Shown: piece after piece, positions 12,450-37,211 of the stretch
Numbering within the stretch: position 1 is the first letter of the stretch
Layout: every line of letters begins with the position of its first letter
Assembly (NCBI GenBank): GCA_963668175.1
Contig: OY764159.1
Span: forward strand, 2,784,001 to 2,848,000
Reading direction: 5' to 3'
Length of the DNA: 64,000 bases
DNA from: Syntrophales bacterium
GTDB taxonomy: Bacteria > Desulfobacterota > Syntrophia > Syntrophales > PHBD01
The notes under the pieces: model-generated
Seen by the model: only the letters and a program-made list of their open reading frames with translations
Database searches by the model: none
Told to the model about the DNA's origin: nothing
Translations under genes and position numbers: made by a program

Positions 12450-12478
12450 TTGACAATATAACTATTATCCTCTATAAT
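12450..12478 (+). promoter_or_regulatory. Consensus sigma-70 promoter of effector/immunity block 1
   Basis: TTGACA-17 bp-TATAAT, exact consensus, upstream of 12594. Confidence 0.8.
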
Positions 12479-12593: not shown

Positions 12594-13148
12594 ATGAATT
12601 CTAAATTGAAGCGGCTGTTTGCATGGAAAAATCGAATTCTTAAGGGTTTCACGCTCTGGCCGACCATTGTGGTGCTATTGTATTTTTTAGAGAGGTGGGT
12701 TTTTTATTATCACGACTATGATTTTTTATTATTTGTCATATTTCTGTTCATATTTCCGGCAGTCTGTTTTATTTGTGCGCTGGTGTTGCTCGTAGTGAGA
12801 AAACCAAAGTCATCTTTATCCTTTCTTACACCCGCGTTGCTTGTGGTCTTTATGTTTTCTTCGTGGGGCGATCCTGTCAGAGATAATTACTACGCTTCAC
12901 GCCACTATGTTGAATTCCAAATCCAGAAAAGATTCTATTTCCCGGAGATGAACGAACCCGATAAGCTGCCCCCTTACAAAGAATGGCCTCTTAACAAGGC
13001 ACGGAGAACTTCAGAGTATACCATCATCTATAATTTGAAAGACTCTGTCGACGAAATAGAAAGACATAAGAAGTACATCAAGAATGGCTGCGGCTACAAT
13101 GTGACTGGAGTCGGCAAACACTTTTATATGCTGGCAGAATGTAAATAG
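12594..13148 (+). CDS. Membrane protein, putative immunity protein (copy 1)
   Basis: Three hydrophobic segments plus a soluble C-terminal domain; paralog of 13285..13862; sits directly before an effector stub. Confidence 0.7.
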   Translation: MNSKLKRLFAWKNRILKGFTLWPTIVVLLYFLERWVFYYHDYDFLLFVIFLFIFPAVCFICALVLLVVRKPKSSLSFLTPALLVVFMFSSWGDPVRDNYYASRHYVEFQIQKRFYFPEMNEPDKLPPYKEWPLNKARRTSEYTIIYNLKDSVDEIERHKKYIKNGCGYNVTGVGKHFYMLAECK

Positions 13149-13284: not shown

Positions 13285-13862
13285 ATGACTTCTAAATTGA
13301 GGCGTCTGTTTGCATGGAAAAATCGAATTCTTAAGGGTTTCACGCTTTGGCCGACCATCGTGATGTTGTCGTTTCTCTTGGAAGAGTGGGTATTTTATTA
13401 TCGCGACATTTATGATATCGGAATTCCTTTAGTCGTTATATTGGTGTTAATATTCCCGGCAGTCTGTTTTATTTGGGCGCTGGTTTTGCTCGGAAGAAAA
13501 AAAAACCGAAGTCGTCTTTATCCTTTCTTACCCCGGCATTGCCTCTGGTCTTTTTTTTATTTTCTCCATGGAGTGATCCTGTCAGAGATATTTTCTCCGA
13601 TTCGCGCCACTATGTTGAATTCCAAATCCAGAAAAGCTTTTATTTCCCGGAAATGAACGAACCCGATAAGCTGCCTCCCTACAAAGAATGGCTTATCAAA
13701 GAGCGTCATAATGTCTCTACGTATTCAATCGTTTACGATTCAAATGACTCCCTGAATGAGAGAGAAAAGAAAAAAGCAGAATTGCATGGCCCTCAACAAT
13801 GGGGTTACAGCATAAAGAAAGTTGGCAAACACTTCTACATGCTGCATGAATTTTATTATTAA
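13285..13862 (+). pseudogene. Putative immunity protein copy 2, frameshifted in an A9 tract
   Basis: ORFs 13285..13656 and 13473..13862 together align with 12594..13148; the frame changes at the A-run 13497-13505. Confidence 0.8.
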
Positions 13863-13893: not shown

Positions 13894-15174
13894 ATGGGTA
13901 GGTACGGAACAGATCATTTCTTTGTTAAAGATGCAAACAAAAAGGACGTTGCGGCAAAGTATCTTAAAGACGCAAATGGAGACTATATTATGAACCGTTC
14001 AACCGGGCGGCCGTATGTCGTCCCGGCCGATTTTAATTTGGACGCAGTGATTGCAAAATACGAAGTCGATCCTCGGACGCTTCCCGATCTGGAAACAAGT
14101 ATGCAAGCACGCGGGGCGTCTTATGCAAAATTGTATGAGAATTTTCAACGCGGGCGGCCGGACGACTTGCAGAGATCCTATAATGGGAAAGTTGACGCCA
14201 CTTGGGTCAAGGACTTTCAGCCGGCAGCCAGCTACGTGTTCGGCGCGGCATGCGCCGCAGCAGGCTTACCCTTGTGGCAATGCAAAGCGGGCGGGGGGGG
14301 CTATAATCTTGGAACGAAAATCTTTGGAGATGGCCCCAAGAATAAAACGTCCGGCGAATTTGGCAACAATCCGGACAATGTTCAACACATCGAACAGGGC
14401 TACCGCAGTCAAACGTCTCCAGATGCTCCAAAGACGACCGGGAAATATGTTCCGGTGGAGGGGGGCGGCATCGATGCGGCGGTCAAAGCCGGGATCTATG
14501 CAGTCGAACCGGGCAATGTCCTTGGCGATATCGCAGCCAAATTTCATACCACCGTTCAAAAAATCATGGAGGCGAATCCCGATATCAAGAATCCGGATTC
14601 GATCCGCCCCGGACAGCGAATCGTATTGCCGAAAGACGACCCCTCCGGCCCCGCCGACAACAAGAAGGACCCCGATCCCGACCGGCAGGGCGCGACAGAC
14701 AAGGGAACGATCAATTCGCAACATAGCCAAAGCATCATCCATGATGGCGGGTTCACACAGATCGCCTCAAGCGCCGGCCCGGATGTTAGCGATAACACCG
14801 CTGCTTCCGCTCCTGCCGATGATGCGCCGGCGGGCTTTCCCGATGCTCCGTTGCGGCATGCGCTGGATGCGCTGGGCGTGAAGCCCCGCGATGTGCAATT
14901 CACCCCGGCGGAGGCGGACGATGAGAAAGAGACGCCGGACTCTTTCGACATCAGAGATAACGACACAGCGGAAAAAATCGGCTCTTATGCGGGAACCCCC
15001 ACCGGCTGCGAAATGACCGTGGGCGACAGGAAGGTCGTAATGGACCGGATGAGCGGTAATGACATTCACCTGCAAACGTATGCCAAAAACGACGATGGAG
15101 ATTTTGAACTCGTTGGGACAACGCGAATCGGCGACAACGACGGGATTACCGTGAGAAGGCCTTTTGCCGCATAG
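13894..15174 (+). CDS. Putative effector E1: possible Ntox44-like N-terminal domain, LysM, conserved C-terminal domain
   Basis: No signal peptide; LysM YAVEPGNVLGDIAAKFHTTVQKIMEANPDIKNPDSIRPGQRIVLP; shared C-terminal domain at 14848-15174. Confidence 0.8.
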   Translation: MGRYGTDHFFVKDANKKDVAAKYLKDANGDYIMNRSTGRPYVVPADFNLDAVIAKYEVDPRTLPDLETSMQARGASYAKLYENFQRGRPDDLQRSYNGKVDATWVKDFQPAASYVFGAACAAAGLPLWQCKAGGGGYNLGTKIFGDGPKNKTSGEFGNNPDNVQHIEQGYRSQTSPDAPKTTGKYVPVEGGGIDAAVKAGIYAVEPGNVLGDIAAKFHTTVQKIMEANPDIKNPDSIRPGQRIVLPKDDPSGPADNKKDPDPDRQGATDKGTINSQHSQSIIHDGGFTQIASSAGPDVSDNTAASAPADDAPAGFPDAPLRHALDALGVKPRDVQFTPAEADDEKETPDSFDIRDNDTAEKIGSYAGTPTGCEMTVGDRKVVMDRMSGNDIHLQTYAKNDDGDFELVGTTRIGDNDGITVRRPFAA

Positions 15175-16188: not shown

Positions 16189-17355
16189 ATGACAAGCAGC
16201 GAGTTCAAGCCGAGCAAATTCAAGGCAGAGGGAATTGAGGGGAACAGTATTGCAACATACTATGACTATGAGAACGGAACGAAACTGGAGATAAAGGGCG
16301 CGGTTCCTGCGGTGCGCTTTAATAACCCGGGCAATATCGCCTGCAATGATCTCAACGATAAGACGGGAAGATGGGTTTCAAGTCAGGGAGCGATCGGTTG
16401 CGCGCAAGGCCGGGCCGTCTTCCCGGACGTCGAGACGGGTTCTCAAGCGATGAGGAACAACCTTGAACGTAAATTTGGGGATTATACGGTTCGCGACATG
16501 CTCTTCGGCGAATACGAATACAACTATGGTCCCGATAAAGTGACACCCGTCAGCATCAAGAAAACGATCAGAGCCGGATACTGCCCCGAGTGGTACCCGG
16601 ACAAGAAGGGAGTCCTTCGGCGTCAGGATACGGAGTCTTACGCGCGGCTTCTCGAAAAGGGTTCCGATGCCAAGGAGACCGACGACCTCAAATCGTAGCC
16701 TATCAACGAACTCGGCAGCAAAATATTCGAGAAGGTTATTCAGAAGATGAAGACGCACGAAGGCTTCTTCAGCCCGCGTAATCAGGGAACGAAAACGTTT
16801 TACGAAAAAGATGGAAAAGTCATCAAACTGAACGAACTGGATAAGAATCTTCGGGAGGGCATTACTCCGGAAAAACCGACCATGATAGCGTATGCCAACG
16901 GCGTGCATACCGATGCGCCCGACGCGGGGAAGACTCTTGAGAATGTTGAAGCAGGATTATCTGGAAAACTGTTGCCCGCAAATATCGACACGGATGGAAC
17001 GGCCGGTTTGCTCGACGCCCCGAATGCTCCGTTGCGGCACGCGATGGCTGCTCTGGGATTGAAGCCCGAAGAAGTGCATATAACCCCGGCGGAGGCGGAC
17101 GATGAGAAGGAGACATCGGAATCCCTCGAGATCAGAGATAACGACACAGCGGAAAAAATCGGCTCTTATGCGGGAACCCCCACCGGTTGCGAAATGACCG
17201 CAGGCGACAGGAAGGTCGTGATGGACCGGATAAGCGGCAGCGACGTCAGCCTGCAAACATACGCCAAAAACGACGAAGGAGAATATGAACTCCTGGGGAC
17301 GACACGAATCGGCGACAACGACGGGGTGACCCTGCGACGGCCGTTTCCGGGATAG
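16189..17355 (+). pseudogene. Putative effector E2 (NNPGNI lysozyme-like domain + conserved C-terminal domain) split by an in-frame TAG at 16696-16698
   Basis: 16189..16698 and 16747..17355 are in the same frame; motif RFNNPGNI…F…G…Y-x-P…SYA…KTHEG spans the stop. Confidence 0.75.
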
Positions 17356-17842: not shown

Positions 17843-18073
17843 ATGAGTGGAGAGAAACAGACTACCATATGGGAACCAAAAACCTTTGATTGCATCAGAC
17901 AGAACAGTTCTATTTTTAAATCCGTTGCAGAACGGATAGGAATCCCCCCGGAAGCCCTCGCCGGCGCCATGGCAAGAGAGAATAACGCCTATAACCATCA
18001 TAGAGGCCGGGAAATATTCATGGACATATGGGCCTTAAAGTGTGTTCCGAACGTGGCGGCGTCATTTATTTAG
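17843..18073 (+). pseudogene. Truncated stub paralog of effector E3
   Basis: WEPKTFDCIRQNSSIFKSVAERIGIPPEALAGAMARENN matches the E3 N-terminus; ends after 76 aa. Confidence 0.8.
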
Positions 18074-18132: not shown

Positions 18133-18789
18133 ATGAAAATGAAGAAATCGCTGAAAGTTGTTCTGCTTTCGATAATAGGGGTCCTTTGGCTGGTCATCGT
18201 GTTGCTGTTGGCGCTTGTGACCGCCGTGGCCGATCATGAGATTGATCTTTACGCATTGTTAAGACCGCTCCCCAGCGATGACGAGATGATCGCGAATTTC
18301 TATGACAATAAGGATGACTTTGAGAAACTTGTCCAAATTTACTACACAGATCCGTCGAATCGATTTTATGGGTCTAAGGCGATGTCTACGCCGGAAGTGA
18401 AAGCCGTCATGAGGCGCGCAAAGGTCTATGGCATAGCAGGCGATGGGGATTTTTGGGTGCCTCCCGACCCTTACAATGAAGAGGCGCGCGATCGGAGTTT
18501 TCGTTCAGGTGAATTAGAAAGGCATCGTGACGGTATCGACTTTCATTACAAACATAAGCGCGTAACAGTCGGAATTGAGAAGTTCGACGATCTGCATAAA
18601 TATTACTATTACGCACCGATGATACCAAAAATAGAGCGCTACCCCGGCGAGCCGTACGATGTATTATTGACGCCTACTCATCATCATCGATTGTATAAAA
18701 GCCTGGACAGGTGGCCTGCCGATCTCCTCCCGCCCGATTGCGTTTACCGGCAAATCGATCTGCAGTGGTTCATTATGGTGTGTCGATAA
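18133..18789 (+). CDS. Membrane-anchored protein, putative immunity for E3
   Basis: N-terminal TM anchor then a soluble domain; directly upstream of E3. Confidence 0.72.
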   Translation: MKMKKSLKVVLLSIIGVLWLVIVLLLALVTAVADHEIDLYALLRPLPSDDEMIANFYDNKDDFEKLVQIYYTDPSNRFYGSKAMSTPEVKAVMRRAKVYGIAGDGDFWVPPDPYNEEARDRSFRSGELERHRDGIDFHYKHKRVTVGIEKFDDLHKYYYYAPMIPKIERYPGEPYDVLLTPTHHHRLYKSLDRWPADLLPPDCVYRQIDLQWFIMVCR

Positions 18790-18876
18790 TAATATTTTCA
18801 GAGCGTGCAACAATGGTTCACGGACATTTGTAAGATAAATTATGACGAAGCGAATTGGATGAAGGAGTTTGGAAAA

Positions 18877-20454: not shown

Positions 20455-20764
20455 TGCCGGGACAGGCACAGGCCGTCTCAATATTCGCCGCGGCTCAGAA
20501 AGAATGCTCGGTTCAAAGGGATATGTGAAAATGAAAAGCAAGGTATCTCCGCATCGCATTCTTTTGTCTGTAAAGGGCAAATGACCTCATTGTTTTGGCC
20601 CCTGGGGGCTTACCAAAGTTTTTGGAACACCCGCGACGATGGTATTTTACCGAATCAATAATTTACCCCGATACGAGTCGAATTGATGGAAAAATGAATA
20701 TGGGAGGAGCAACGAGAGATTTTTTTATTCGTTGATCAAGCGGGAAGGCATAGGAGGGAAAAAA

Positions 20765-22258
20765 TTGAAAACGAAAGCGATCTTGATAGTGCTGATCTGT
20801 ATTGCCGCCTGCGCCGGCTATCAACAACCTGCCAGGGCATCCGGGGACGCCGCCGTTACATGCCGGAGCGCCAAGGAGTGCGTCGATCGGGGAATTCGCA
20901 AATTCAATGAACGGCAGTACGACTCGGCCATCGCCTATTATACGCGGGCCATCGCGCTTGATCCCGAATATGCCGCCGCGTACGATCGCCGCGCGAATGC
21001 CCATGCCCTCAAACAGGACTATCGCAGCGCCATTGCCGATTATACCGAGGCCATTAGAATCGATCCCGGGTTTGCCGAGGCCTACCATGGGCGCGGGCTT
21101 GCCTACGCGAAAACAGGGGATAGCGACCTCGCCATTGCCGATTACACGGCGGCCATCGACCGCAAGTGGCGGGATGTCGTTCAGTCCTACTATTATCGCG
21201 GCAATGCCTATTATAATGTGGGGAAGAACGATCTCGCCGTTCGCGATTACGATGAAGTCCTTCGCATCGATCCTAAAGCTGCCAACGCCTGCTTCAATCG
21301 CGGCCTTGCATACAAGAGGATGGGGGACGACGCCAGGGCCGCTGCGGATTTCGACAGGGTGATCGCCCTCGATCCGAAACACGCGGAGGCGTACTATTGG
21401 CGCGGCGCTATCTTTCAGAAAAGAAAGGATTACGACCGTGCCGTCGCCGATTTCAGCCAGGCCCTTGCCGTCAATCCGCAGCACGCCAAAGCCCGTCTCG
21501 TCCGGGGGAATGCCTATGCCGAAAAAGGAGACTATAACACCGCCATTGCCGATTATACCCAGGTCATTCTGATGAATCCCGCTTTTGCAGATGCAAGTCT
21601 TAACCGCGGACGCGTTTACATGGAAACCGGGGACGATGCCAGGGCCGTTGCCGATTTCACAAGGATGATCACCCTCGACCCGAAGCACGCGGAGGCGCAC
21701 TATTTGCGCGGACGTATCTATCAGAAAAGAAAGGATTACGACCGTGCCATCGCCGATTTCAGCCAGACCATCGCCTTCAATCCGCAGCACGCGAAAGCCC
21801 GGCTCGCCAGGGGGAATGCCTATGCCGAAAAAGGCGACTATAACAACGCTATCGCGGATTATACCGAGGTCATCCGGATGAATCTTCCGGATAAGTACAA
21901 GGTGGGGGTTATCGTTAATCGCGGCCTTGCATACGAGAAAATGGGGGACGATGCCGGGGCCATTGCCGAGTTCACGAGCGCCATCGCCCTCGATCCGGAA
22001 AATGCGGCCCCATACTATGCCCGCGGGCGCAGCTATCTTAAAATATGGGATTTCGACCGCGCCTTTACGGATTTCAATAAGGCCATTGCCGTCAATCCAC
22101 AGTATCGGGAAGCTTACATGGCCCGCGGCGCTTCCCTCCTGGGGAAGGGGAAATGTGCCGAGGCATGGCGGGACGTGAGGCACGCAGAAGGACTGGGCGA
22201 GATACCAAATCCAAACTTCTATAAGTTCCTCAACGAAAAATGCCCGCCGCAACAGTAG
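20765..22258 (+). CDS. Exported TPR-repeat protein
   Basis: About 13 34-aa TPR units (RG-x-AY…A-x-ADY/F…P); N-terminal signal or lipoprotein-like sequence; TTG start after ggaggg. Confidence 0.9.
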   Translation: MKTKAILIVLICIAACAGYQQPARASGDAAVTCRSAKECVDRGIRKFNERQYDSAIAYYTRAIALDPEYAAAYDRRANAHALKQDYRSAIADYTEAIRIDPGFAEAYHGRGLAYAKTGDSDLAIADYTAAIDRKWRDVVQSYYYRGNAYYNVGKNDLAVRDYDEVLRIDPKAANACFNRGLAYKRMGDDARAAADFDRVIALDPKHAEAYYWRGAIFQKRKDYDRAVADFSQALAVNPQHAKARLVRGNAYAEKGDYNTAIADYTQVILMNPAFADASLNRGRVYMETGDDARAVADFTRMITLDPKHAEAHYLRGRIYQKRKDYDRAIADFSQTIAFNPQHAKARLARGNAYAEKGDYNNAIADYTEVIRMNLPDKYKVGVIVNRGLAYEKMGDDAGAIAEFTSAIALDPENAAPYYARGRSYLKIWDFDRAFTDFNKAIAVNPQYREAYMARGASLLGKGKCAEAWRDVRHAEGLGEIPNPNFYKFLNEKCPPQQ

Positions 22259-22516: not shown

Positions 22517-23374
22517 ATGGCAGCAGAAAACAAGAAGAACGATAATGAAAAGACGTTAAAAAAGGGATTTGAAATATTTAATTTTGTGAAAGATATCGCA
22601 AGCAAGACCGGTGACATCCTTGCGACCGGAAATTCCACCGTAAAATTAATCAAAATGGGAGTGGACGGTTCAATGACGGTACTACAGAGTATTCCAAAGT
22701 CGCTACTGGAAGGAGAATTAGTTCCTATTGGCCTTGTAAAAGAACTTGGCACATGGGGTGCTTCCTCCGCAGTCGGCGAGACGATCATTGTAACGGCGGG
22801 CGGTTTGGCATCCGCCGGAGCAGCGACCATTTTAGGGGCGGCAACGCTGACCGCAGCGGCAGGCGCGCTATACGGTGCTTTATGGCAAAAGGTGTATGAG
22901 CATTCGAAGGAGAACCCTATATGGGAAGGCGCGCCCGAGATGAAATACGACGGTATGTATCTGCATGATCCCTCCAAATCCGGAAACGAGATACCAAATG
23001 AAGATGCCATTATGAAGAACTATTCCCTGAACGATCCCGGCAAGCCATTGAAGCATGCATTGACCGCGCTGGGATTGAAACCCGACGAGGTGCATCTAGC
23101 TCCGGCGGCGAGCAATGGGAATTCGACGTCGGAAGCCCTCGCTATAAGGGATAAGGACACATCGGAAAAAATAGGCTCCTGCGTGATGACGCCTGGCGGC
23201 TGCGAAATGACCGCGGGCGACAGGAAGGTCGTGATGGACCGGATAAGCGGCAGCGACATTCATCTGGAAACGTATGCCAAAAACGACGATGGAAAATATA
23301 AACTCCTGGGGCAGACAAGAATCGGCGACAACGACGGGATCACCGTGAGAAGGCCGTTTACGGGGCTCGCCTGA
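22517..23374 (+). CDS. Putative effector E4: Gly/Ala-rich hydrophobic N-terminal region + conserved C-terminal domain
   Basis: IIVTAGGLASAGAATILGAATLTAAAGALYGALW; shared C-terminal domain at 23045-23374; no signal peptide. Confidence 0.78.
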   Translation: MAAENKKNDNEKTLKKGFEIFNFVKDIASKTGDILATGNSTVKLIKMGVDGSMTVLQSIPKSLLEGELVPIGLVKELGTWGASSAVGETIIVTAGGLASAGAATILGAATLTAAAGALYGALWQKVYEHSKENPIWEGAPEMKYDGMYLHDPSKSGNEIPNEDAIMKNYSLNDPGKPLKHALTALGLKPDEVHLAPAASNGNSTSEALAIRDKDTSEKIGSCVMTPGGCEMTAGDRKVVMDRISGSDIHLETYAKNDDGKYKLLGQTRIGDNDGITVRRPFTGLA

Positions 23375-23604
23375 TGCCGGGACAGGCACAGGCCGTCTCA
23401 ATATTCGCCGCGACACTGCATGAAAATTCGGTTCATGGAGGATGAAACGTGAAGCAGCCGTTTCCCGAATTCGGGGTACCGCATCCCCTCGTACAGGATG
23501 CGGTACGTAATGATCTATTGTTTCTTCTCATAGTGTTGGGAATTCCGGGAATTCGCGCAGTCGGAATGCTATGCTGGCATTTCAGGATACGGGGAGGCAC
23601 GTCA

Positions 23605-24507
23605 ATGCCGGCTTTTAAACCGTTTACATGGATTGCGGTTCTCATCGTCATCGCGGTTATTCCCGCGCCTGGATTTGCCGCGCCGCATATCGTTCCGCTT
23701 GACTCCGTGTTCAAAGTGACAGAGGTGCCCTACGAAGGCGGCGAATTAATGATGCCCGGCAAGGATAGCAGCGGCAAAAAGAACGGCGATGGGGAGGAAT
23801 CCTTTTCTCCCGGCTGGAAGAAGCTCTTTCTTAGCGTACCGGGCAGCAAGCGATCATACTTGTTGGACGGAACATGCGTCCATTATGATCGGAACGCAAT
23901 CGACCTCGGCGACGGGCGCATCGTTATGGCGTGCCAATCGGGAGGCAACCATTGCTGCAGCACATACGTGAGCCTGCTGAAGGACAGTAAAAAAGGCACG
24001 CTGAAGGTCGCCGGTTCGAGAACGATCATTCATCCCGAGCTGGGCATAGACAAAGAAAGCATCGGGCCTGTCGATTCCCGGGGAAACCTGAGCATCGAAG
24101 TTCACGGATTTACCGATCGATACGACGACGATATCGAAAAAGCGAGCCACGAACCTTCTTTCATCTATTACATCAAGATCCTTAAGACCGGCCATGTGGC
24201 CGTCGACAGGGACGTTAAAGCGTACGAGAACATCATCGCGAAGCTCAAAACATCGTTGTCGAAATCGTACGATTTCGAGATGTATGTGCAGCTTGTCTTT
24301 TATAACCGTCTTCTCGATCTGAAACTTTCCGAAAACGCCTATCTGAGCAAAGCCTCGGCGTCCGAAAAAGGCGTTGCCGCCCGCGGCGTCAAGTGGATAT
24401 TTGAAGAAATGCCGTTTCTCAGGATTATCAACGACGATGATGGTTTTGCTCTGAAGCCGACCGCCCCGATCTCAGGCCATGACGCTGTTCAAAAAAAGAA
24501 ACGCTGA
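23605..24507 (+). CDS. Exported hypothetical protein (SGGNHCC motif), possible orphan immunity protein
   Basis: RBS ggagg, signal peptide ending …PGFA; follows E4 with no effector downstream. Confidence 0.65.
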   Translation: MPAFKPFTWIAVLIVIAVIPAPGFAAPHIVPLDSVFKVTEVPYEGGELMMPGKDSSGKKNGDGEESFSPGWKKLFLSVPGSKRSYLLDGTCVHYDRNAIDLGDGRIVMACQSGGNHCCSTYVSLLKDSKKGTLKVAGSRTIIHPELGIDKESIGPVDSRGNLSIEVHGFTDRYDDDIEKASHEPSFIYYIKILKTGHVAVDRDVKAYENIIAKLKTSLSKSYDFEMYVQLVFYNRLLDLKLSENAYLSKASASEKGVAARGVKWIFEEMPFLRIINDDDGFALKPTAPISGHDAVQKKKR

Positions 24508-27230: not shown

Positions 27231-27956
27231 GCAAACCTCCTGCCTTTCAATCGATGTTGGTGGTGAATGATCCCGCCTGCGCGGCGGTAAGTCTAATCCG
27301 TTGGTGAACCATTCTGATTGCCGGGGTATCTCCTTTCGTTGACGATGATTGCTTCAATGCTTGCGCGATTGATCCATCCGTCGCTCCGTCTGCGGTCCCC
27401 TCATGAAACAGCCACCCGCTATTCACCACCACCGCAAAGAGGTTCTTTGCTGCCGATGCCCCTTTGAAAACGTCCCCGCGCGGATGCCCCTAACATCCCC
27501 GCGGCCCTGAAATGATCTCACGGGTAAAAAAGCGGTCCCGGAAAACACAAAACCCCGCCTCTGGAAAGAGAGACGGGGTTTCGAATATTCCTGCATAACG
27601 CGCTTTCGTAAAGACGGTTCTGGAGCCGGTTAACGATGTCCACTTTAATGCCTTTTCTGACATATTAAAGCAAAATGCACAAAATTGCCAAGACAATTTT
27701 TCGCCCCCTGCCGGCGTGACCGGCGAAAAAGAGCGATCCATTTTCCGGCCGGTTCGTTACAATTGCCGATCATACGGGACTTTCGAAGGCGGGTACGGCC
27801 AAGGCCGGACGTAACCGGTTATCCGGGAAACCGCGAAAACGTCCGGTTCCATCTATCGCTTCAAAAACAGAAATGCTGGAATATTGTAATGCAAGATGAT
27901 TCTTCTGCAATTCCCTTAATATCAGTATGTTATGATTATATTATACCATATTCTTA

Positions 27957-27985
27957 TTGACATCTATAGGAAAATATATTATAAT
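27957..27985 (+). promoter_or_regulatory. Consensus sigma-70 promoter of WG-repeat/E5 operon
   Basis: TTGACA-17 bp-TATAAT, exact consensus. Confidence 0.8.
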
Positions 27986-28055
27986 TTCGGCATGATAACA
28001 CAGAGCGGCCGGACAGGACAGAAGGCGTTCGGACCGTTGGCTGTCTAAAAGGGGG

Positions 28056-29168
28056 ATGCACAAGATGAACGGAAGAAATACAGGGGCGAACAGGATTATA
28101 CCAATCATTTTGATCGTATGGGTATGCATCGCTGTGTCCGCAGGCGACGCAGGATCAACCGACAGCTATTTCCCTTGCCCCGTTTATGTCAACGCAGGTC
28201 TCAAGGGCAAGCTCCGTCACGTGAAAAAATGGGGTTATATGGACATCCATGAAAAGATCGTCATCAAGCCGCGTTTTAAGGAAGCGTGGAGTTTCAGCGA
28301 AGGGCTGGCCCATGCGATGAATGCCAGATATAAATACGGCTTCATCGATCTTAAGGGGAATTGGGCCGTCAAGCCGCAATTCGACAACGTGAGAAGTTTC
28401 CGTGAGGGCATGGCGGCGGTTTCAATCAAAAGGAAATATGGGTTTGTCGATAAAACGGGCCGGCTCGTCGTCCCGCTTGTCTATGATAACGCTATGGACT
28501 TCCGCGAAGGCCTGGCCCTAGTTGCGGACAACGACAAATGGGGTTTTGTAGATAAAACGGGCCGGGTGGTCGTCCCGCTCATATACGACGAACATGTCTC
28601 GTGCTTCCGCGAAGGTCTGGCCTGTTTTAAGGAAAACAAGAAATACGGTTTCATGGATAAAAAAGGGCAGGTTGTCATTCCGGCGCAGTTCGACAGGGTC
28701 TTGTATGGCTTCAGCGAAGGCCTGGCAGGCGTTCAGATTAACGGGAAATGGGGTTTCATCGACCGCTTCGGCCGGATCGTCATCGAGCCGAAATTCGACA
28801 GGGCCGGGAGGACGGTCATGTTCCGGGAAGGGCTTGCCGCCGTGAAAATCGACGGCAAGTGCGGCTTCATCGACAAGACGGGAGCTATCCGGATCAAGCC
28901 CGATTACAGTTATGCGTTCGACTTTTCCGAGGGGTTCGCGACGGTGACTTTTGATGATGGTACGGACGCTTATATCGACAAATCGGGAAACATCGTCATC
29001 AGGATTGAGGAAAATAAGGGGACTGCATATTGGGAAGGCGATTTCCGCAAAGAAGGCGTAGCGAAAATATGTTTTAACGATTCCAAATATTCGGCAGAGG
29101 ATTGCGGATTCATCAATCGTCAGGGGATATTTGTCATTCAACCTAAATACAATTCCATTCATAATTAA
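28056..29168 (+). CDS. WG-repeat exported protein, putative immunity for E5
   Basis: Repeated F(S/R)EGLA-x-V…K(W/Y)GF(I/V)DK-x-G units; signal peptide; ends 24 bp before E5. Confidence 0.9.
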   Translation: MHKMNGRNTGANRIIPIILIVWVCIAVSAGDAGSTDSYFPCPVYVNAGLKGKLRHVKKWGYMDIHEKIVIKPRFKEAWSFSEGLAHAMNARYKYGFIDLKGNWAVKPQFDNVRSFREGMAAVSIKRKYGFVDKTGRLVVPLVYDNAMDFREGLALVADNDKWGFVDKTGRVVVPLIYDEHVSCFREGLACFKENKKYGFMDKKGQVVIPAQFDRVLYGFSEGLAGVQINGKWGFIDRFGRIVIEPKFDRAGRTVMFREGLAAVKIDGKCGFIDKTGAIRIKPDYSYAFDFSEGFATVTFDDGTDAYIDKSGNIVIRIEENKGTAYWEGDFRKEGVAKICFNDSKYSAEDCGFINRQGIFVIQPKYNSIHN

Positions 29169-29192
29169 TTTCTTTGACCAAGGAGGAATAGA

Positions 29193-30419
29193 ATGGCGGG
29201 AACAATTTACAGCAATTTGCAGACCCAAAAACAGAAAGACTGGTACCGTGGCATTGCTCTATTCGGAGACAAGAAAGAAATACCGCTGGATGTGATCAAT
29301 GCCGTGCTCCTGCTCGGGAATCTCGAATCTCGCGGTTTTAGACCGGAGGCGGAGAGCGGTACCGGGGCTTCGGGACTGTTTCAGTATATGGAAGGAAGGT
29401 GGACGGACATCACAGACAAAAATAAAAAGAATAAATTGTATTACGATACTTACAACCAAATGATCGATTGGGGATACAATCCAGCGAGACGCGAGAGGGA
29501 GAATCCGGCCGATCAGGTAATCGTCGTATACGCGGAGGTAGCGAGTTATACGAAGGAATTCAATTCAGCGACTAAACCCCGTGGAAAACGCAACTCGGAT
29601 TATAAGAATGCGTGGAACGCTTACGATAAGGCATGTAAAGGATTGGGGAAGGACTGCCCCACCGATCCCTATGAGAGATACATCCTGTTTGTCCAGGCGG
29701 CTCACCACGGACCGAGCAATATTCAGGAAGTGATAACCGGCTGGAAAAAGCAAATACTACCCAATATCAAGGACAATTTAGAATTTCTGAAATCGAAACG
29801 CAAAGAATGGAACCTGAAGGTCTCCCAGGACGATACGGAGGCTGAAACCGACAAGGTTGCCGAGGCGGCAGAACGGGATTCCGGGCGGACAGCGTCGGCT
29901 GCGCAACCGGACGATGCGTATTCGACCGAAGACAGGAAGAGAAAAGACCTCGCTGCGGGAGACGACGCCGAAGCTGAAACGGCGAGAAGAGGCGACGATG
30001 CGGGCGACCGGGATACCGACGATTCCATGAACAGACAGGGCGGCGTTCCCGCGACGGCCGCGAACGGTTCGTCCGTGGGCATTCCCGATGCTCCATGGCG
30101 GCACGCGATGGACGCGCTCGGAGTAACGTCCAGTGAGATACATTTAACCCCAGCGGATAACAGGAATTTAACGTCGGACTCCTTCGAGATCAGAGATAAC
30201 GACTCATCGGAAAAGATCGGTTCTTGTATGATGACTCCCACCGGCTGCGAAATGACAGCGGGCGACAGGAAGGTCGTGATGGATAAGATAAGCGGCAACG
30301 ACGTCAGCGTGGAAACATACGCCCAAAACGACGATGGAGAATATGAACTCCTGGGGACGACAAGAATCGGCGACAACGACGGCATAACGGTGAGAAGGCT
30401 GTGGACGGGGTTTGCGTGA
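29193..30419 (+). CDS. Putative effector E5: SLT/lytic transglycosylase-like domain + conserved C-terminal domain
   Basis: LESRGFRPEAESGTGASGLFQY matches the SLT ES…GA-x-GLFQ motif; acidic linker; C-terminal domain at 30093-30419. Confidence 0.82.
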   Translation: MAGTIYSNLQTQKQKDWYRGIALFGDKKEIPLDVINAVLLLGNLESRGFRPEAESGTGASGLFQYMEGRWTDITDKNKKNKLYYDTYNQMIDWGYNPARRERENPADQVIVVYAEVASYTKEFNSATKPRGKRNSDYKNAWNAYDKACKGLGKDCPTDPYERYILFVQAAHHGPSNIQEVITGWKKQILPNIKDNLEFLKSKRKEWNLKVSQDDTEAETDKVAEAAERDSGRTASAAQPDDAYSTEDRKRKDLAAGDDAEAETARRGDDAGDRDTDDSMNRQGGVPATAANGSSVGIPDAPWRHAMDALGVTSSEIHLTPADNRNLTSDSFEIRDNDSSEKIGSCMMTPTGCEMTAGDRKVVMDKISGNDVSVETYAQNDDGEYELLGTTRIGDNDGITVRRLWTGFA

Positions 30420-34011: not shown

Positions 34012-34445
34012 TCGGTGCCTCCTTCAGCTTGACATGATGCATCGCCGGCGGGATCGATCCGCGGTCTCGACGGCGCACGGCGACGGCAAAACCGGCCGTG
34101 CCGCAGTGCGTAACTCCTGGGGCGGTTACGCCGGCGACTTGCCGGCATGGTATCATATTAAGCCGATTTTGTAAGCTCCTTAAGCTGCCGGCACATGTCG
34201 CAGACGAGGGCTCCCGACCGGCAGGGCGGGAGCGCGTTGTTGCGCCGGAGGGGCTCTCCGCGCTTGTCCGGCTGACGGCGGGTACGGCCCATGCCGGCGG
34301 TAACCGGTTATCCGGATAACCGCGAAAACGTTCGGTTCCGCCTATCGCTTCCAAAACAGACATGCAGGCAATTTGTAATGCATGATGATTCTTTTGCAAT
34401 TCCCCTAATGTCGGTATGTTATAATTATATTATACCTTATTCTTA

Positions 34446-34474
34446 TTGACATTAATGGTAAAATATATTATGAT
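34446..34474 (+). promoter_or_regulatory. Sigma-70 promoter of WG-repeat/E6 operon
   Basis: TTGACA-17 bp-TATGAT inside a ~290-bp region paralogous to about 27810-28100. Confidence 0.75.
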
Positions 34475-34544
34475 ATCGATATGATAACATGGCAATGCCG
34501 GACAGGACAGAAGGCGTTCGGACCGTTGGCCGTTTATAAGGGAG

Positions 34545-35864
34545 GTGAACAAGATGAACGGAAGAAATAGATGGGCGAACAGGATTATACTCATTATTCT
34601 GATTACATGGGCATGCCTCTCTATCCCCGTGAGCGAAGCAGGAGCTGACGAGAGCTCTTTCCCTTGCCCCGTCTTCCTGAAAAGCGATGGCCGCAATATT
34701 CCCGGCATTGGGAGATACCGGTGGGGATACATCGATATCAAGGGGAACATCGTCATCAAGCCGCGTTTTGTTGATGCGGTGCATTTTCGCGAAGGCCTGG
34801 CGGCGGTGATCGTCAAGGGTAAAGGATATGGATATATAGATGTGAAAGGAAAGTTTGTCATCGATCCGGCTTTCGATCGGGCACAGGATTTCTGGAAGGG
34901 GATGGCCCGCGTCAAGATGAAGGGCAAATGGGGCATCATCGACAAGACCGGGCGGTTCGTCATTCCGCCCGCATACGATCATGTCAACGTTTTCAGGGAA
35001 GGCATGGCCGCGGTTATGGCCGGTGACAAGTGGGGCTTCGTCGACGAGACGGGACGGATTGTCGTTCCGCCCTTATACAAGCAAGTTGAATATTTCAACG
35101 AAGGCATGGCCGCGGTTATGGTCGGCGACAAGTGGGGCTTTGTAGACAAGACGGGGCGGACGGCGATTGAACCGGTGTTTTCATCGGCAGGAAGTTTCAG
35201 CGAAGGCTGCGCGGCCGTAATGATCGACAAAAAAGCAAAATTCATCAATCGTCTCGGGGAAAAAACGATTGCCCGGGAATATGAGGGTGCGGGAGGTTTC
35301 AACGAAGACATGGCCGCAGTCAAGGTTAACGGCAAATACGGCTTCATCAACAGAGCGGGCGACATGGTTATTCAACCGGAATTCGATGAGGTTCATTTTT
35401 TTCATAATGGCCTGGCGGCGGTCAGGGTTAACGGCAAATACGGCTTCATCAACAGAGCGGGCGACATGGTTATTAAACCCGAATTCGACGACTATGAATC
35501 GTTTCATGAGGGCCTGGCGGCGGTTGTTATAAAAGAAAAATGGGGCTTTGTTGACGTGACGGGCAGGCTGGTCGCCGCGCCGCAGTTCGATCGAGTACGG
35601 AGTTTCAGCGAGGGGCTGGCCGCGGTATACGACGGCAGCGATGAAATCCGTTATATCGACAAGTCCGGAAAAATCGTAATCCGCAATAAGCATAAAATCA
35701 CCGACGGCGGCTGGTTGGGAAATTTCGGAAAAGACGGTGTGGCCAAAGTCTGTACCGACTTTACCAGCAATGGTTATTTGGGATGCGGATTCATCGACAG
35801 ACAGGGAAACTTTGTCATCAAGCCGAAATTTACATCAACGAGTTATGGACGAGAAAAAATTTAA
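34545..35864 (+). CDS. WG-repeat exported protein, putative immunity for E6
   Basis: About ten WG repeats, signal peptide, paralog of 28056..29168. Confidence 0.9.
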   Translation: MNKMNGRNRWANRIILIILITWACLSIPVSEAGADESSFPCPVFLKSDGRNIPGIGRYRWGYIDIKGNIVIKPRFVDAVHFREGLAAVIVKGKGYGYIDVKGKFVIDPAFDRAQDFWKGMARVKMKGKWGIIDKTGRFVIPPAYDHVNVFREGMAAVMAGDKWGFVDETGRIVVPPLYKQVEYFNEGMAAVMVGDKWGFVDKTGRTAIEPVFSSAGSFSEGCAAVMIDKKAKFINRLGEKTIAREYEGAGGFNEDMAAVKVNGKYGFINRAGDMVIQPEFDEVHFFHNGLAAVRVNGKYGFINRAGDMVIKPEFDDYESFHEGLAAVVIKEKWGFVDVTGRLVAAPQFDRVRSFSEGLAAVYDGSDEIRYIDKSGKIVIRNKHKITDGGWLGNFGKDGVAKVCTDFTSNGYLGCGFIDRQGNFVIKPKFTSTSYGREKI

Positions 35865-35876
35865 GGGAGCAAGGAA

Positions 35877-37211
35877 ATGGCAGCATTATACGACAGGTTG
35901 GACGCGGAACAGAAGAAGGTTTACGACAAAATCGTTGCGTTCGGAAAATCGAAAGAGTTTTCAACGGAAGATATCAATATCGCCCTGCAGATCGCCTATG
36001 TGGAGTCCGAATTTGGAAAATTGAAGGACAAAGAAGGTGAAGATGCACCAAAAGGCCTCTATCAATATTCCGAAAGACACTGGAAGGACAGACAACGCCC
36101 CGGCTGGTCGCAAGTCGGCAAGGAAGTCAAAGATATTCTTTCCTCCTGGGGTTATACGAAAGATCCGAAACGTCCTGAAGGTAATACAGATCCTGAATAT
36201 GAAAAAGGCACCGTCAACATTTTTCAGGAAAAGCAGGACGATCAGATAGCGATGTTCTATGCAGAGCTGAAAATTTACACGGATAGATTCAAGAAAGGCG
36301 TATCCGATCCGGCTTATAATAAAGTCTGCCGGAATATGCAATGCCCGACGGATCCATACAGCCGGAAAGCCTTGTATATTGAGGCGACGCACCACAGTGC
36401 CGATAATATCGGGGAAGTTCTCAACGGCTGGAAAAAGAAAGTCCAGCCCAATTTGATGGATAATTTGAATTATTTAAAAAAGAACGCAGTCAAGTGGGAG
36501 AAGAAAATCTCCCAGGACGATACGGAAGCTGCAACAGACAAGGTCGCCGAGGCGACGGAGCGGGATTCCGGGCGGACAACCCCGGCCGGGCAACCGGTCG
36601 ACGCGTATTCAACCGAAGACGGGACGAGAAAAGACCTCGCTGCGGGAAACGAGGCCGAAGCCGAAACGGCGAGAAAAGGCGACGATGCTGGCGAAAGGGA
36701 TGCCGACGATTCCACGAACAAGCGAGGCGGCGCTTTCAAGTCTGCCTCGAACGGTTCGTCCGTGGGCATGCCCGAAGCTCCATGGCGTCATGCGATGGCG
36801 GCGTTGGGCGTGAAGCCCGGCGATGTGCAATTTACAGACTGTTGAAAAACGTCCATCTGTTGCGTTGCGCCGTAAGCCTCGTCATTCGACATACGTCTAT
36901 GTATACCTCATTCCTCGGCTTTTGCGCGCCTTACATCTGGACATTTTTGAACAGCCTGCGTGCCCCCTGCATAGTAGGGGGACGCGCCCCCCGAATGGGG
37001 AGTTCAAAATCGAGTTTTTCAACAAGCATTTTACGCAGACGGCTGCGAAATGACCGCAGGCGACAGGAAGATCGTGGTGGATAAGATAAACGACTCCGAC
37101 GTGTATGTGGAAACATATGCCAAGAACGACGAAGGGGATTTAAAGCTTCAGAAGACCGTGAGAATCGGCGACAACGACGGGATAACGTTGAGAAGGCCGT
37201 TTGCCGCTTAG
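35877..37211 (+). pseudogene. Putative effector E6 (SLT-like), C-terminal domain disrupted by an insertion
   Basis: VESEFG…KGLYQY motif; paralog of E5; ORF stops at 36845 inside the insertion; the domain resumes at 37041 (GCEMTAGDRK…RRPFAA*). Confidence 0.82.
36835..37027. mobile_element. MITE-like non-autonomous insertion
   Basis: Inverted repeats cagactgttgaaaaacgtcca (36835) and tggacatttttgaacagcctg (ends 36958), 18/21 match; second end-like tttttcaacaagc at 37015-37027; interrupts E6. Confidence 0.7.

What the first reader, a model, noticed from the sequence alone, without database searches (positions are those of the whole stretch)
14848..15174. The conserved ~108-aa C-terminal domain itself
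Seen: copies at 14848-15174, 17029-17355, 20125-20454, 23045-23374, 30093-30419, and split at 36779-36834 plus 37041-37211. Consensus P(L/W)xHAxxALG(V/L)xxx(D/E)V…I(R)DxxxxEKIGS…GCEMTAGDRKVVMD(R/K)ISGxD(V/I)xxxTYAKND(D/E)GxYELLGTTRIGDNDG(I/V)T(V/L)RRPF, always at the extreme C-terminus. Inference: a helix followed by beta strands and a basic RR tail recalls the alpha-beta core of XVIPCD and the basic tails of T4SS signals, but the XVIPCD motifs are not evident. It is a candidate new translocation or coupling-protein-binding domain.
Basis: partly seen in the sequence, partly recalled or inferred. Interest (0 to 1): 0.85.

Follow-up and report, generated by a model that had tools for sequence, protein, structure and literature searches.

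The report
New C-terminal tag on bacterial toxins
Six neighbouring genes for cell-wall-attacking toxins all end in the same unclassified 110-residue domain, which probably tells the cell's export machinery to deliver them, though that machinery was not identified.

Summary
The window holds five intact copies and one broken copy of a ~110-aa domain (CTD), each at the very end of an ORF. A seventh paralog probably lies elsewhere in the genome.

- **Unclassified.** It matched nothing in Pfam, NCBIfam, PHROGs, PDB sequences, the ESM Atlas, or Foldseek against PDB and BFVD.
- **Rare.** Only 14 clusters reach E<=1e-10 among 1.84 billion representatives.
- **Under purifying selection.** dN/dS is 0.25-0.65.
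- **Position.** It ends 0-2 residues from the C-terminus in 34 of 34 members, and none has a Sec-like N-terminus.
- **Variable cargo.** Upstream parts include SLT-like, NlpC/P60, Ntox44-like plus LysM, and a Gly/Ala-rich hydrophobic segment. They have recombined freely with the CTD.
- **Neighbours.** Adjacent genes encode signal-peptide or membrane proteins, which are candidate immunity proteins.

My reading is a "reverse" polymorphic antibacterial toxin family in which the CTD is the shared delivery tag. The closest analogue is XVIPCD of bacteria-killing type IV systems. The resemblance is in gene architecture and the basic tail only. Sequence, fold and the Gln-rich tail do not match. The export machine is unknown. 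No secretion genes lie in the window, and the rest of the genome could not be read.

The parts
14842..15174 (+). CTD copy 1, the flagged feature. It forms the last 110 codons plus stop of toxin gene 1.
   Evidence: E 6e-63
13894..15174 (+). Toxin gene 1 (P0001, 426 aa): Ntox44-like N-terminal domain, LysM (residues 202-246), Asp/Pro-rich linker, CTD.
   Evidence: LysM 1.8e-12; 35% identity, E 2e-13, to P0168, whose overlapping region matches Pfam Ntox44 at 30.4 bits against a cut-off of 24
16189..17355 (+). Toxin gene 2, interrupted by an in-frame TAG at 16696-16698. Its CTD lies at 17023-17355.
   Evidence: continuous homologues P0009, P0011, P0016, P0020
18805..20454 (+). Toxin gene 3 (P0003, 549 aa, or 525 aa from a later start): unknown N-terminal domain, LysM (327-377), linker, CTD at 20119-20454.
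22517..23374 (+). Toxin gene 4 (P0004, 285 aa): N-terminal part with a Gly/Ala-rich hydrophobic segment, possibly membrane-inserting. CTD at 23039-23374.
   Evidence: the membrane-inserting role is inferred from composition only
29193..30419 (+). Toxin gene 5 (P0005, 408 aa): SLT/lysozyme-like N-terminal domain with weak matches only, acidic linker, CTD at 30087-30419.
   Evidence: SLT E 0.011; Phage_lysozyme2 E 0.062, both below cut-off; PHROG endolysin E 5.5e-4
35877..36845 (+). Toxin gene 6 (P0006, paralogue of gene 5), truncated. It ends 21 residues into the CTD (CTD part 36774-36836).
37032..37211 (+). Orphaned distal part of CTD copy 6 (profile positions 51-109), in the same frame as gene 6.
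   Evidence: E 4.2e-28
36837..37031 (.). Unrelated DNA replacing CTD positions 22-50 of copy 6. It holds a perfect 11-nt inverted repeat at 36840-36850 and 37014-37024.
28056..29168 (+). WG-repeat protein with an N-terminal signal peptide (P0043), 24 nt upstream of toxin gene 5. Candidate periplasmic immunity protein.
   Evidence: (WG_beta_rep 1e-91); signal peptide by inspection; immunity role inferred
34545..35864 (+). WG-repeat protein with a signal peptide (P0044, 50% identical to P0043), 12 nt upstream of toxin gene 6. Candidate immunity protein.
12594..13148 (+). Multi-pass membrane protein upstream of toxin gene 1, with a frameshifted second copy at 13285-13862. Candidate immunity protein.
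   Evidence: repeat families D18 and D19, 85-87% nt identity
15304..16179 (+). 291-aa protein with a signal peptide, between toxin genes 1 and 2 and 9 nt upstream of gene 2. Candidate immunity protein.
   Evidence: no family
18133..18789 (+). 218-aa protein with an N-terminal membrane anchor or signal, 15 nt upstream of toxin gene 3. Candidate immunity protein.
20732..22258 (+). TPR protein with a lipoprotein-like N-terminus, between toxin genes 3 and 4. Possible immunity protein.
23449..24507 (+). 352-aa protein with hydrophobic segments, downstream of toxin gene 4. Possible immunity protein.
27957..27985 (+). Perfect sigma-70 consensus (12 of 12) ahead of the WG1-toxin 5 pair. A second 12 of 12 site lies at 12450-12478 ahead of the gene 1 module, and an 11 of 12 site at the paralogous position 34446-34474.
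   Evidence: overall counts were not above the shuffles

Best explanation
The CTD is the constant C-terminal module of a family of "reverse" polymorphic antibacterial toxins.

**Architecture.** Each protein has three parts:
- a variable N-terminal toxin domain that acts on the cell envelope. Examples are lytic-transglycosylase-like, NlpC/P60, Ntox44-like plus LysM, and a Gly/Ala-rich hydrophobic type;
- a mostly acidic linker that is poor in hydrophobic residues;
- the ~110-aa CTD, made of one helix and an eight-strand antiparallel beta structure. It ends in a free tail of the form (R/K/T)R-P-(F/W)-small/hydrophobic.

**Proposed mechanism.** The proteins have no Sec-type signal, yet their targets (peptidoglycan, membrane) lie outside the cytoplasm. 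I therefore propose that the CTD is what a dedicated export or injection machine recognises. One machine could then deliver many different cargoes. The adjacent signal-peptide or membrane proteins would protect the producer.

**Shown:**
- the domain, its position and its rarity;
- purifying selection on it;
- the nature of the cargo domains;
- shuffling between cargo and CTD;
- the absence of an N-terminal hydrophobic signal;
- the envelope location signals on the neighbouring proteins.

**Inferred:**
- toxicity of the cargo;
- the immunity role of the neighbours;
- that the CTD is a delivery tag.

**Open.** The machine is not identified. Recognition by a type IV coupling protein is the best analogy, and loading onto a type VI or other contractile system is about as likely.
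For: 1. **Real, selected domain.** Five full copies score E 2.5e-64 to 6e-63. dN/dS is 0.17-0.65.
2. **Strictly terminal.** The match ends 0-2 residues from the C-terminus in 34 of 34 distinct members. The same holds for all 14 clusters with E<=1e-10 in the 1.84-billion-protein library.
3. **Conserved tail.** 34 of 34 members have R or K and no D or E in the last 8 residues.
4. **No Sec-like N-terminus.** The highest 12-residue Kyte-Doolittle mean in the first 40 residues is 1.68 or less in all members (heuristic).
5. **Cargo is toxin-like and envelope-directed.** Of 31 proteins found, precomputed Pfam gives LysM in 9, SLT in 5, NlpC/P60 in 1 and none in 16. The P0001 N-terminus links to Ntox44.
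6. **Modular shuffling.** On a CTD tree of 33 members, the 10 cargo classes need 23 changes. The minimum is 9 and the shuffled mean is 22.9. Starred clades join different cargo classes.
7. **Neighbouring genes.** Immediately upstream genes encode signal-peptide or membrane proteins. Strong promoter-like sites lie ahead of the pairs.
8. **Island character.** GC is 0.43-0.56, against 0.56-0.65 in the 12 kb upstream. Two of six copies are inactivated, as is common in toxin arsenals.
9. **Parallel with X-Tfe effectors, as described in PMC8740702.** I read only passages of that paper. The shared features are diverse N-terminal catalytic domains, a ~120-aa C-terminal domain, upstream immunity genes, several truncated paralogues per genome, and last residues with Arg, no acidic residue, and hydrophobic or small residues.
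Against: - No secretion-system gene lies in the 64-kb window. The Pfam scan covered 53 of its ORFs.
- No experiment or co-occurrence analysis links the CTD to any machine.
- Two of the six N-terminal types in the window have no recognisable toxin family.
- The SLT match of P0005 is below Pfam's cut-off (E 0.011-0.035).
- Signal peptides, and their absence, were judged by eye and by a hydrophobicity heuristic only.
- The immunity roles are untested.
- The CTD is a well-folded, acidic beta domain (pI 4.4-4.6 in 4 of 5 copies). That would also suit a binding module.
- Type VI cargo markers described so far are N-terminal. This is my recollection, not a call.
- XVIPCD-type systems are reported from Xanthomonadales, Burkholderiales and Neisseriales. 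This genome looks Desulfobacterota-like (weak evidence).
Confidence: 0.5

Rival explanations
1. The CTD is the target-recognition or import domain of a released, diffusible bacteriocin, with colicin- or pesticin-like logic in reverse order. The toxins leave the producer by lysis or a generic exporter. The folded beta domain then binds a surface receptor on related cells, and the disordered acidic linker helps passage across the outer membrane.
For: - The CTD is a compact folded beta domain, not a short unstructured signal.
- A long linker poor in hydrophobic residues precedes it. Only 7-11 of 80 residues are hydrophobic in P0001 and P0005.
- The cargoes act in the periplasm and must cross a target outer membrane.
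- The family is narrowly distributed, as expected for receptor-specific bacteriocins.
Against: - No lysis or release gene is recognisable beside the toxin genes.
- One homologue (P0028) lacks the linker altogether.
- A strictly conserved free C-terminal basic tail (34 of 34) is not an expected feature of a receptor-binding domain.
- A single receptor domain conserved across all cargoes would be an easy target for resistance.
Confidence: 0.15
2. The CTD is a C-terminal type I (ABC transporter, MFP, TolC) secretion domain. The toxins would be exported unfolded in one step, and the Asp-rich beta hairpins would fold outside the cell, perhaps with calcium.
For: - The domain is at the extreme C-terminus and there is no N-terminal signal.
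- The domain is acidic, with pI 4.4-4.6 in 4 of 5 copies.
- Three Asp/Asn-rich turn motifs are visible in the alignment: DNDT, NDDG and DNDG.
Against: - Pfam finds no RTX or HemolysinCabind repeats.
- No ABC, MFP or TolC genes lie in the window.
- Type I signals are, to my knowledge, poorly conserved in sequence. This domain has 47 invariant columns among five paralogues.
- A diffusible product would still need a way into target periplasm.
Confidence: 0.1
3. The CTD is not a delivery element. It would instead be an anchoring, oligomerisation or autoinhibitory module, for example holding the hydrolases on the producer's envelope or in a particle, or keeping them inactive until release.
For: - The best, non-significant structural neighbour is the beta-sheet hub domain of TarM. 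TM-score is 0.46-0.50 normalised to the query, with E 0.09-0.25.
- Many cell-wall hydrolases carry C-terminal binding modules. This is general knowledge, not a call.
Against: - There is no significant similarity to any known wall-binding or other module.
- Two window proteins already carry LysM for wall binding.
- The proteins lack a route to the envelope, having no Sec-like N-terminus.
- Housekeeping autolysins would not be expected to sit in low-GC islands with shuffled cargoes and paired signal-peptide proteins.
Confidence: 0.12
4. The CTD is itself the toxic or enzymatic part, and the N-terminal regions are variable targeting domains.
For: In classical polymorphic toxins the toxin domain is C-terminal (abstract of PMC3482391 in the search listing).
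Against: - In those systems the C-terminal toxin is the variable part. Here it is the constant part.
- The recognisable enzymatic or toxin families (SLT, NlpC/P60, Ntox44-like) are all N-terminal.
- The neighbouring candidate immunity genes differ from module to module, whereas a single toxin would call for one shared type.
- No catalytic family or fold was detected for the CTD.
Confidence: 0.03

Closest known systems
XVIPCD, the C-terminal domain of X-Tfe effectors of bacteria-killing type IV secretion systems (Xanthomonas citri, Stenotrophomonas, Lysobacter). Source: passages of PMC8740702.
   Same: - Constant C-terminal domain of ~110-120 residues on effectors with diverse N-terminal cell-wall-degrading domains.
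- Several paralogues per genome, some truncated.
- Partner (immunity) genes immediately upstream that encode exported proteins.
- Last residues carry Arg, lack acidic residues, and are hydrophobic or small.
   Different: - No sequence similarity. The CTD profile found 0 PDB sequences at E<=10. XVIPCD is in the PDB as 7MU9, according to the paper.
- Different predicted fold: one helix plus eight strands, against an alpha-alpha-beta-beta-beta core with an unstructured tail.
- No glutamine-rich tail. There is 1 Gln in the last 40 residues.
- The CTD is folded almost to its end.
- The host is not one of the three reported orders.
- No VirD4 or T4SS is seen.
Classical polymorphic toxin systems (Rhs, CDI, LXG and others; Zhang et al. 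2012, PMC3482391, passages read).
   Same: - One constant trafficking module combined by recombination with many toxin domains.
- Adjacent immunity genes, plus orphan and degraded copies.
- An Ntox44-like cargo is shared with those systems.
   Different: - Orientation is reversed. Here the toxin is N-terminal and the constant module C-terminal.
- The candidate immunity genes mostly lie upstream, not downstream.
- The constant module belongs to none of the listed trafficking domains.
TslA and TslM, type VII lipase toxins with reverse domain arrangement (PMC10730906, PMC13560087; search listing and abstract openings only).
   Same: N-terminal toxin and C-terminal targeting domain.
   Different: Those targeting domains are helical and LXG-like, and belong to Gram-positive type VII secretion. 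The CTD is beta-rich and sits in a Gram-negative-type genome.
Type IX secretion C-terminal domains (recalled from general knowledge, not from a call).
   Same: A beta-rich C-terminal sorting domain of about 80-100 aa on diverse cargoes.
   Different: Type IX cargoes need an N-terminal Sec signal and occur in Bacteroidota. Here there is no Sec-like N-terminus, and no Pfam or NCBIfam sorting-domain model matched.

Membership tests
XVIPCD / X-Tfe effectors | A C-terminal domain of ~120 residues on effectors with diverse N-terminal toxin domains. | tested here: met
   a ~110-aa domain ending 0-2 residues from the C-terminus in 34 of 34 members. Cargo is LysM, SLT, NlpC/P60 or Ntox44-like.
XVIPCD / X-Tfe effectors | The conserved XVIPCD sequence motifs, meaning detectable homology. 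| tested here: not met
   The CTD profile against all PDB chain sequences gave 0 hits at E<=10. The XVIPCD structure 7MU9 is deposited according to PMC8740702. I could not confirm independently that the local copy holds it, and I had no XVIPCD alignment for a profile-profile test.
XVIPCD / X-Tfe effectors | A folded alpha-alpha-beta-beta-beta core followed by an unstructured tail. | tested here: not met
   AlphaFold2 gives one helix plus eight strands reaching residue ~105 of 110. 7MU9 is not among the 50 best Foldseek matches listed in either PDB search.
XVIPCD / X-Tfe effectors | A glutamine-rich C-terminal tail. | tested here: not met
   There is 1 Gln in the last 40 residues in each of the 5 window copies.
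XVIPCD / X-Tfe effectors | An extreme C-terminus with Arg and no acidic residues, enriched in hydrophobic or small residues. | tested here: met
   34 of 34 members have R or K and no D or E in the last 8 residues. Tails include RRPFAA, RRPFAGLA and TRPWTGLA.
XVIPCD / X-Tfe effectors | Binds the VirD4 all-alpha domain, and translocation depends on the T4SS. | not testable with these tools
XVIPCD / X-Tfe effectors | A cognate immunity gene upstream in the same operon. | tested here: inconclusive
   Signal-peptide or membrane proteins lie 9-24 nt upstream of genes 2, 3, 5 and 6, with promoter-like sites ahead of the pairs. Their immunity function is not shown.
Polymorphic toxin systems (general) | A constant trafficking module recombined with many alternative toxin domains. 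| tested here: met
   There are 10 cargo classes on one CTD. The CTD tree is incongruent with cargo: 23 changes, against a minimum of 9 and a shuffled mean of 22.9.
Polymorphic toxin systems (general) | The toxin domain at the C-terminus and the trafficking domain at the N-terminus. | tested here: not met
   The order is reversed in all members.
Type IX secretion CTD | An N-terminal Sec signal plus a recognisable T9SS sorting domain. | tested here: not met
   No hydrophobic N-terminal segment. No Pfam or NCBIfam match for the CTD.
Type I / RTX substrates | Gly/Asp-rich nonapeptide repeats upstream of a C-terminal signal, with an ABC/MFP/TolC locus. | tested here: not met
   No HemolysinCabind or other repeat family matched. 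No such transporter genes lie in the window. An acidic pI is the only shared trait.
Type VI cargo effectors | A known marker or loading element (MIX, FIX, PAAR, Rhs or an adaptor gene), or vgrG/hcp nearby. | tested here: not met
   None appeared in the Pfam scans of the toxins or of 53 window ORFs. This does not exclude a T6SS elsewhere in the genome.
Cell-wall-binding modules (LysM, SH3b, PG_binding, CW_binding and similar) | Sequence or fold similarity of the CTD to such a module. | tested here: not met
   Pfam at E<=0.1 gave none for the CTD. Foldseek against PDB gave no hit at E<=0.001, with best values of 0.087 and 0.23.

The most novel reading that the evidence does not exclude
The CTD is a new class of secretion or translocation tag. 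It would define a family of antibacterial effectors in Desulfobacterota-like anaerobes. It would also mark either a bacteria-killing type IV-like system far outside the three orders where these are known, or a delivery route not yet described. The tag could then be used to mine the whole effector and immunity repertoire of such organisms and to identify the machine by co-occurrence.
Probability: 0.4. Interest if true: 0.8.

Novelty: new variant of a known kind. Interest (0 to 1): 0.62.

Why it matters
Shared delivery domains are how whole effector arsenals have been discovered. XVIPCD, MIX, LXG and the T9SS C-terminal domains are examples.

A new tag of this kind would:
- extend interbacterial-warfare biology to anaerobes from a poorly studied lineage;
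- give a simple sequence handle for finding new cell-wall toxins and their inhibitors;
- point to the machine that reads it.

The reversed order, with the toxin first and the tag last, is rare. It constrains how the cargo is recognised and threaded. The family is small, at 14 clusters in 1.84 billion representatives, so its direct reach is limited unless more distant relatives exist.

Tried and rejected
- **Chance or recent duplication.** Rejected. E-values are 2.5e-64 to 6e-63, DNA identity to the reference copy is 65-82%, and dN/dS is below 1.
- **Known families for the CTD.** All of these were empty or non-significant:
  - Pfam at E<=0.1;
  - NCBIfam;
  - PHROGs;
  - PDB sequences at E<=10;
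  - ESM Atlas;
  - Foldseek against PDB, run twice;
  - Foldseek against BFVD.
- **Plasmid or phage origin.** tblastn found no match in 72,556 plasmid records or 50,697 phage records.
- **Relatives in species-representative genomes.** There are none. 46 pattern hits were found and none was confirmed.
- **Taxon and synteny.** I scanned with the Pat-like protein encoded between two modules. This returned three MAG loci with 76-87% identity to that protein only, and no shared neighbours. The taxon therefore stays "Desulfobacterota-like, unresolved".
- **WG-repeat homologue search.** This returned 7962 generic repeat proteins and said nothing about immunity.
- **Toxin-immunity co-fold.** I requested a co-fold of the SLT-like domain with the WG-repeat protein.
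- **Cluster accessions and names.** The database was switched off, so this stayed unchecked.
- **Rfam on the whole window.** No match.
- **Weak library hits.** The three weak hits P0040-P0042 (E 1.8e-5 to 1.9e-4) are long repeat proteins matched by 6-11 (6-18 in my own search) short stretches. I set them aside as not family members.
- **Literature.**
  - Searches for XVIPCD (21 papers), reverse domain arrangement (30), WG repeat plus immunity protein (1) and Ntox44 (18) turned up nothing describing this domain.
  - The search for "polymorphic toxin" plus "N-terminal toxin domain" plus "C-terminal" returned 0 papers.
  - A sequence motif cannot be searched in that library, so this is weak evidence that the domain is unpublished.
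  - The neighbourhoods of the roughly 27 metagenomic relatives were therefore not seen.
Full report
**1. Observation**

ORF listing and translation show six plus-strand ORFs that end in the same sequence:
- 13894-15174
- 16747-17355
- 18805-20454
- 22517-23374
- 29193-30419
- 35877-36845, with a remnant at 37041-37211

An alignment of the five intact copies has 47 invariant columns out of about 110, and identity to copy 1 is 63-77%.

A profile built from that alignment was run with all heuristic filters off over the six-frame translation of the window. It finds exactly these five copies, with domain E-values of 2.5e-64 to 6e-63. It also finds one split copy, with profile positions 1-21 at 36774-36836 and positions 51-109 at 37032-37208, both in the same frame. 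Nothing else of significance appears.

DNA identity to the reference copy of each repeat family is 65-82%. Nei-Gojobori dN/dS is 0.25-0.65 over the whole domain and 0.17-0.33 over the C-terminal half, with dS up to 0.8. The copies are therefore old paralogues held together by selection on the protein.

**2. Corrections to the gene models**

- ORF 16189-16698 and ORF 16747-17355 are in one frame, separated by a TAG at 16696-16698.
- Four homologues of 397-426 aa (P0009, P0011, P0016, P0020) are collinear with the read-through and continuous at that point.

Gene 6 stops 21 residues into its CTD.
- The next 29 profile positions are replaced by about 195 nt of unrelated DNA.
- That DNA contains a perfect 11-nt inverted repeat at 36840-36850 and 37014-37024.

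So four copies sit on apparently intact genes and two on inactivated ones. A further paralogue, P0014, is listed on a contig of the same 4,567,304-bp length as the window's own proteins. It is not encoded in the window.

**3. What the domain is not**

Every library search for the CTD was empty or non-significant:

| Search | Result |
|---|---|
| Pfam, E<=0.1 | no family |
| NCBIfam | no family |
| PHROGs | no family |
| CTD profile vs 177,635 distinct PDB sequences, E<=10 | 0 hits |
| ESM Atlas | no usable hit |
| tblastn vs plasmids | no match |
| tblastn vs phages | no match |
| 185,579 species-representative genomes | 46 pattern hits, none confirmed |

**4. Distribution**

The word-indexed search of 5.8 billion clusters, restricted to longer proteins, returned 31 proteins. 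Four of them are the window's own.

The exhaustive HMMER search of 1.84 billion representatives returned 17 proteins at E<=0.001, 14 at E<=1e-10 and 11 at E<=1e-30. In all 14 strong hits the match ends within one residue of the C-terminus. Three of the 14 are CTD-only pieces of 53-104 aa and are probably fragments. The three weak hits are long repeat proteins matched by many short stretches, and I do not count them as members.

My own hmmsearch over all stored proteins gives the same picture. The CTD ends 0-2 residues from the C-terminus in 34 of 34 distinct members, five from the window and 29 fetched.

**5. Structure**

AlphaFold2 predicts one N-terminal helix, a variable acidic loop of low confidence, and then eight antiparallel strands reaching residue ~105 of 110.
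- From the five paralogues, mean pLDDT is 77.7 and pTM 0.69.
- From 34 sequences, mean pLDDT is 80.7 and pTM 0.70.

Foldseek finds nothing at E<=0.001 in the PDB or in BFVD. The best PDB neighbour is the beta-sheet hub domain of TarM, with E 0.087-0.25 and a TM-score of 0.46-0.50 normalised to the query. That is below what I would accept as shared fold.

**6. Cargo**

The N-terminal parts fall into 10 classes by BLAST clustering of 33 members. Among the 31 proteins, the precomputed Pfam domains are LysM in 9, SLT in 5, NlpC/P60 in 1 and none in 16.

In the window:
- **P0001 and P0003** carry LysM, at E 1.8e-12 and 3.6e-4.
- **P0005** has sub-threshold SLT, phage-lysozyme and endolysin matches. 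Its family conserves an E-S ... G-L-F-Q-Y pattern. From memory, this recalls family-1 lytic transglycosylases.
- **P0001's first 140 residues** are 35% identical (E 2e-13) to the N-terminus of P0168. The overlapping region of P0168 passes Pfam's Ntox44 cut-off, at 30.4 bits against 24. Ntox44 is listed among polymorphic-toxin domains in PMC3482391 (passage read).
- **P0004** has a Gly/Ala-rich hydrophobic stretch. I read it as possibly membrane-inserting, from composition only.
- **The domains of gene 2 and P0003** remain unknown. For gene 2 the Atlas pointed only to unnamed, mostly viral clusters.

**7. No classical export signal**

In the first 40 residues of every member, the highest 12-residue Kyte-Doolittle mean is 1.68 or less. 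No n-region plus h-region pattern is visible. This is a heuristic, and no signal-peptide predictor was available.

**8. Modularity**

A maximum-likelihood tree of 33 CTDs was built, leaving out P0008 (a start-codon variant of P0003) and the CTD-only P0036.
- The cargo classes need 23 changes, against a minimum of 9 and a shuffled mean of 22.9. 133 of 200 shuffles were as low.
- Strongly supported CTD clades join different cargo classes. One joins cargo classes 1, 4 and 7 at 100/100, and another joins 2, 6 and 8 at 99/92.
- Linkers travel with the CTD across cargoes. P0010 and P0005 share a near-identical linker but have different N-terminal domains.
- One homologue, P0028, lacks the linker entirely.

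Constant and variable parts have therefore been recombined repeatedly. This is the hallmark of polymorphic toxin systems, here in reversed order.

**9. Neighbourhood**

The toxin genes lie in segments of lower GC, at 0.43-0.56 against 0.56-0.65 in the 12 kb upstream. They are interleaved with ordinary metabolic genes: an FAD oxidoreductase, a Pat-like acyl-CoA synthetase/GNAT and a radical-SAM enzyme.

Directly upstream of the toxin genes lie genes for exported or membrane proteins:
- WG-repeat proteins with signal peptides lie ahead of genes 5 and 6.
- A membrane-anchored 218-aa protein lies ahead of gene 3.
- A 291-aa signal-peptide protein lies ahead of gene 2.
- A multi-pass membrane protein, with a frameshifted duplicate, lies ahead of gene 1.
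- A TPR lipoprotein-like protein lies ahead of gene 4.

Consensus sigma-70 sites lie ahead of three modules. Two match 12 of 12, at 12450-12478 and 27957-27985. One matches 11 of 12, at the paralogous 34446-34474. Total counts did not exceed the shuffles.

I infer immunity-then-toxin operons, but this is not tested. No secretion-system component was found among the 53 window ORFs scanned.

**10. Host**

The only handle is the Pat-like protein.
- It is 87% identical to proteins in a Desulfomonilaceae MAG and a Syntrophales MAG, and 76% identical to one in a Smithella MAG.
- There is no shared synteny.

Together with the indolepyruvate-ferredoxin-oxidoreductase-like and radical-SAM genes, this suggests a Desulfobacterota-like anaerobe. 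The placement is weak.

**11. Mechanism**

The cargoes act on peptidoglycan or membranes. The proteins lack Sec signals. One invariant module sits at the free C-terminus, and 34 of 34 members have a tail with R or K and no acidic residue. The simplest reading is that the CTD is what a dedicated export or injection machine recognises.

The closest described case is XVIPCD. I read passages of PMC8740702. The shared features are:
- a ~120-aa C-terminal domain on effectors with diverse N-terminal catalytic domains;
- immunity genes always upstream;
- 13 paralogues in X. citri, some truncated;
- the last six residues with Arg, no acidic residues, and hydrophobic or small residues.

The CTD shares that architecture and tail. 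It fails the family's other defining features:
- no sequence similarity;
- a different predicted fold;
- no Gln-rich tail.

So it may work like an XVIPCD, but it is not one.

A type VI or other contractile system is about equally plausible as the machine, because the cargo spectrum (amidase, glycoside hydrolase, membrane toxin) matches what I recall of type VI effectors. The rivals that remain open are:
- a released bacteriocin with a C-terminal receptor domain;
- a type I signal;
- a non-delivery binding or oligomerisation module.

**12. Verdict**

The feature is a new domain family in a known kind of system, with an unusual orientation.

Noticed in passing
window 16696-16698: An in-frame TAG splits toxin gene 2 (16189-17355) into two ORFs. 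Four metagenomic homologues are continuous at this position.
   Followed up: yes
window 36837-37031: About 195 nt of unrelated DNA replaces the middle of CTD copy 6. It contains a perfect 11-nt inverted repeat (36840-36850 and 37014-37024) enclosing 163 nt, so it may be a small mobile element. Its first 30 nt occur only once in the window.
   Followed up: partly
window 17843-18073: A short ORF that duplicates the N-terminal ~70 residues of toxin 3, with 77% nt identity to 18874-19071 (family D14). It is an orphan toxin fragment just upstream of the candidate immunity gene 18133-18789.
   Followed up: partly
window 12594-13148 and 13285-13862: A tandem duplicate of a multi-pass membrane protein gene, 85-87% nt identical. 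The second copy is split over two frames (ORFs 13285-13656 and 13473-13862). It lies in the lowest-GC stretch of the window (0.43).
   Followed up: partly
window 27785-30419 and 34274-37211: Two paralogous modules, each made of a promoter, a WG-repeat gene and an SLT-like toxin gene, about 6.5 kb apart and up to 85% nt identical in places. They flank a core Pat-like gene on the opposite strand.
   Followed up: partly
window 20732-22258: A TPR protein gene built of 102-nt (34-codon) repeats, with 11 copies detected. Its N-terminus is lipoprotein-like. It lies between toxin genes 3 and 4.
   Followed up: no
window 51919-52509 and 57908-58534 (minus strand): Two small proteins with PEP-CTERM sorting motifs, which implies an exosortase system in this genome.
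   Followed up: no
window 145-1824 and 1939-4206: A FecR-LysM-Ig-like protein lies next to a CHASE2 histidine kinase. It is another LysM protein but has no CTD.
   Followed up: no
proteins P0167 and P0168 (fetched): These have an Ntox44-like domain at the N-terminus, followed by a long low-complexity C-terminal region without the CTD. They may be another 'toxin-first' family with a different C-terminal part.
   Followed up: no
table: Three pairs of CTD proteins have identical longest-contig lengths: 12719 (P0025, P0026), 12722 (P0029, P0031) and 7752 (P0024, P0028). CTD genes therefore probably cluster in other genomes too. The contigs could not be fetched.
   Followed up: no
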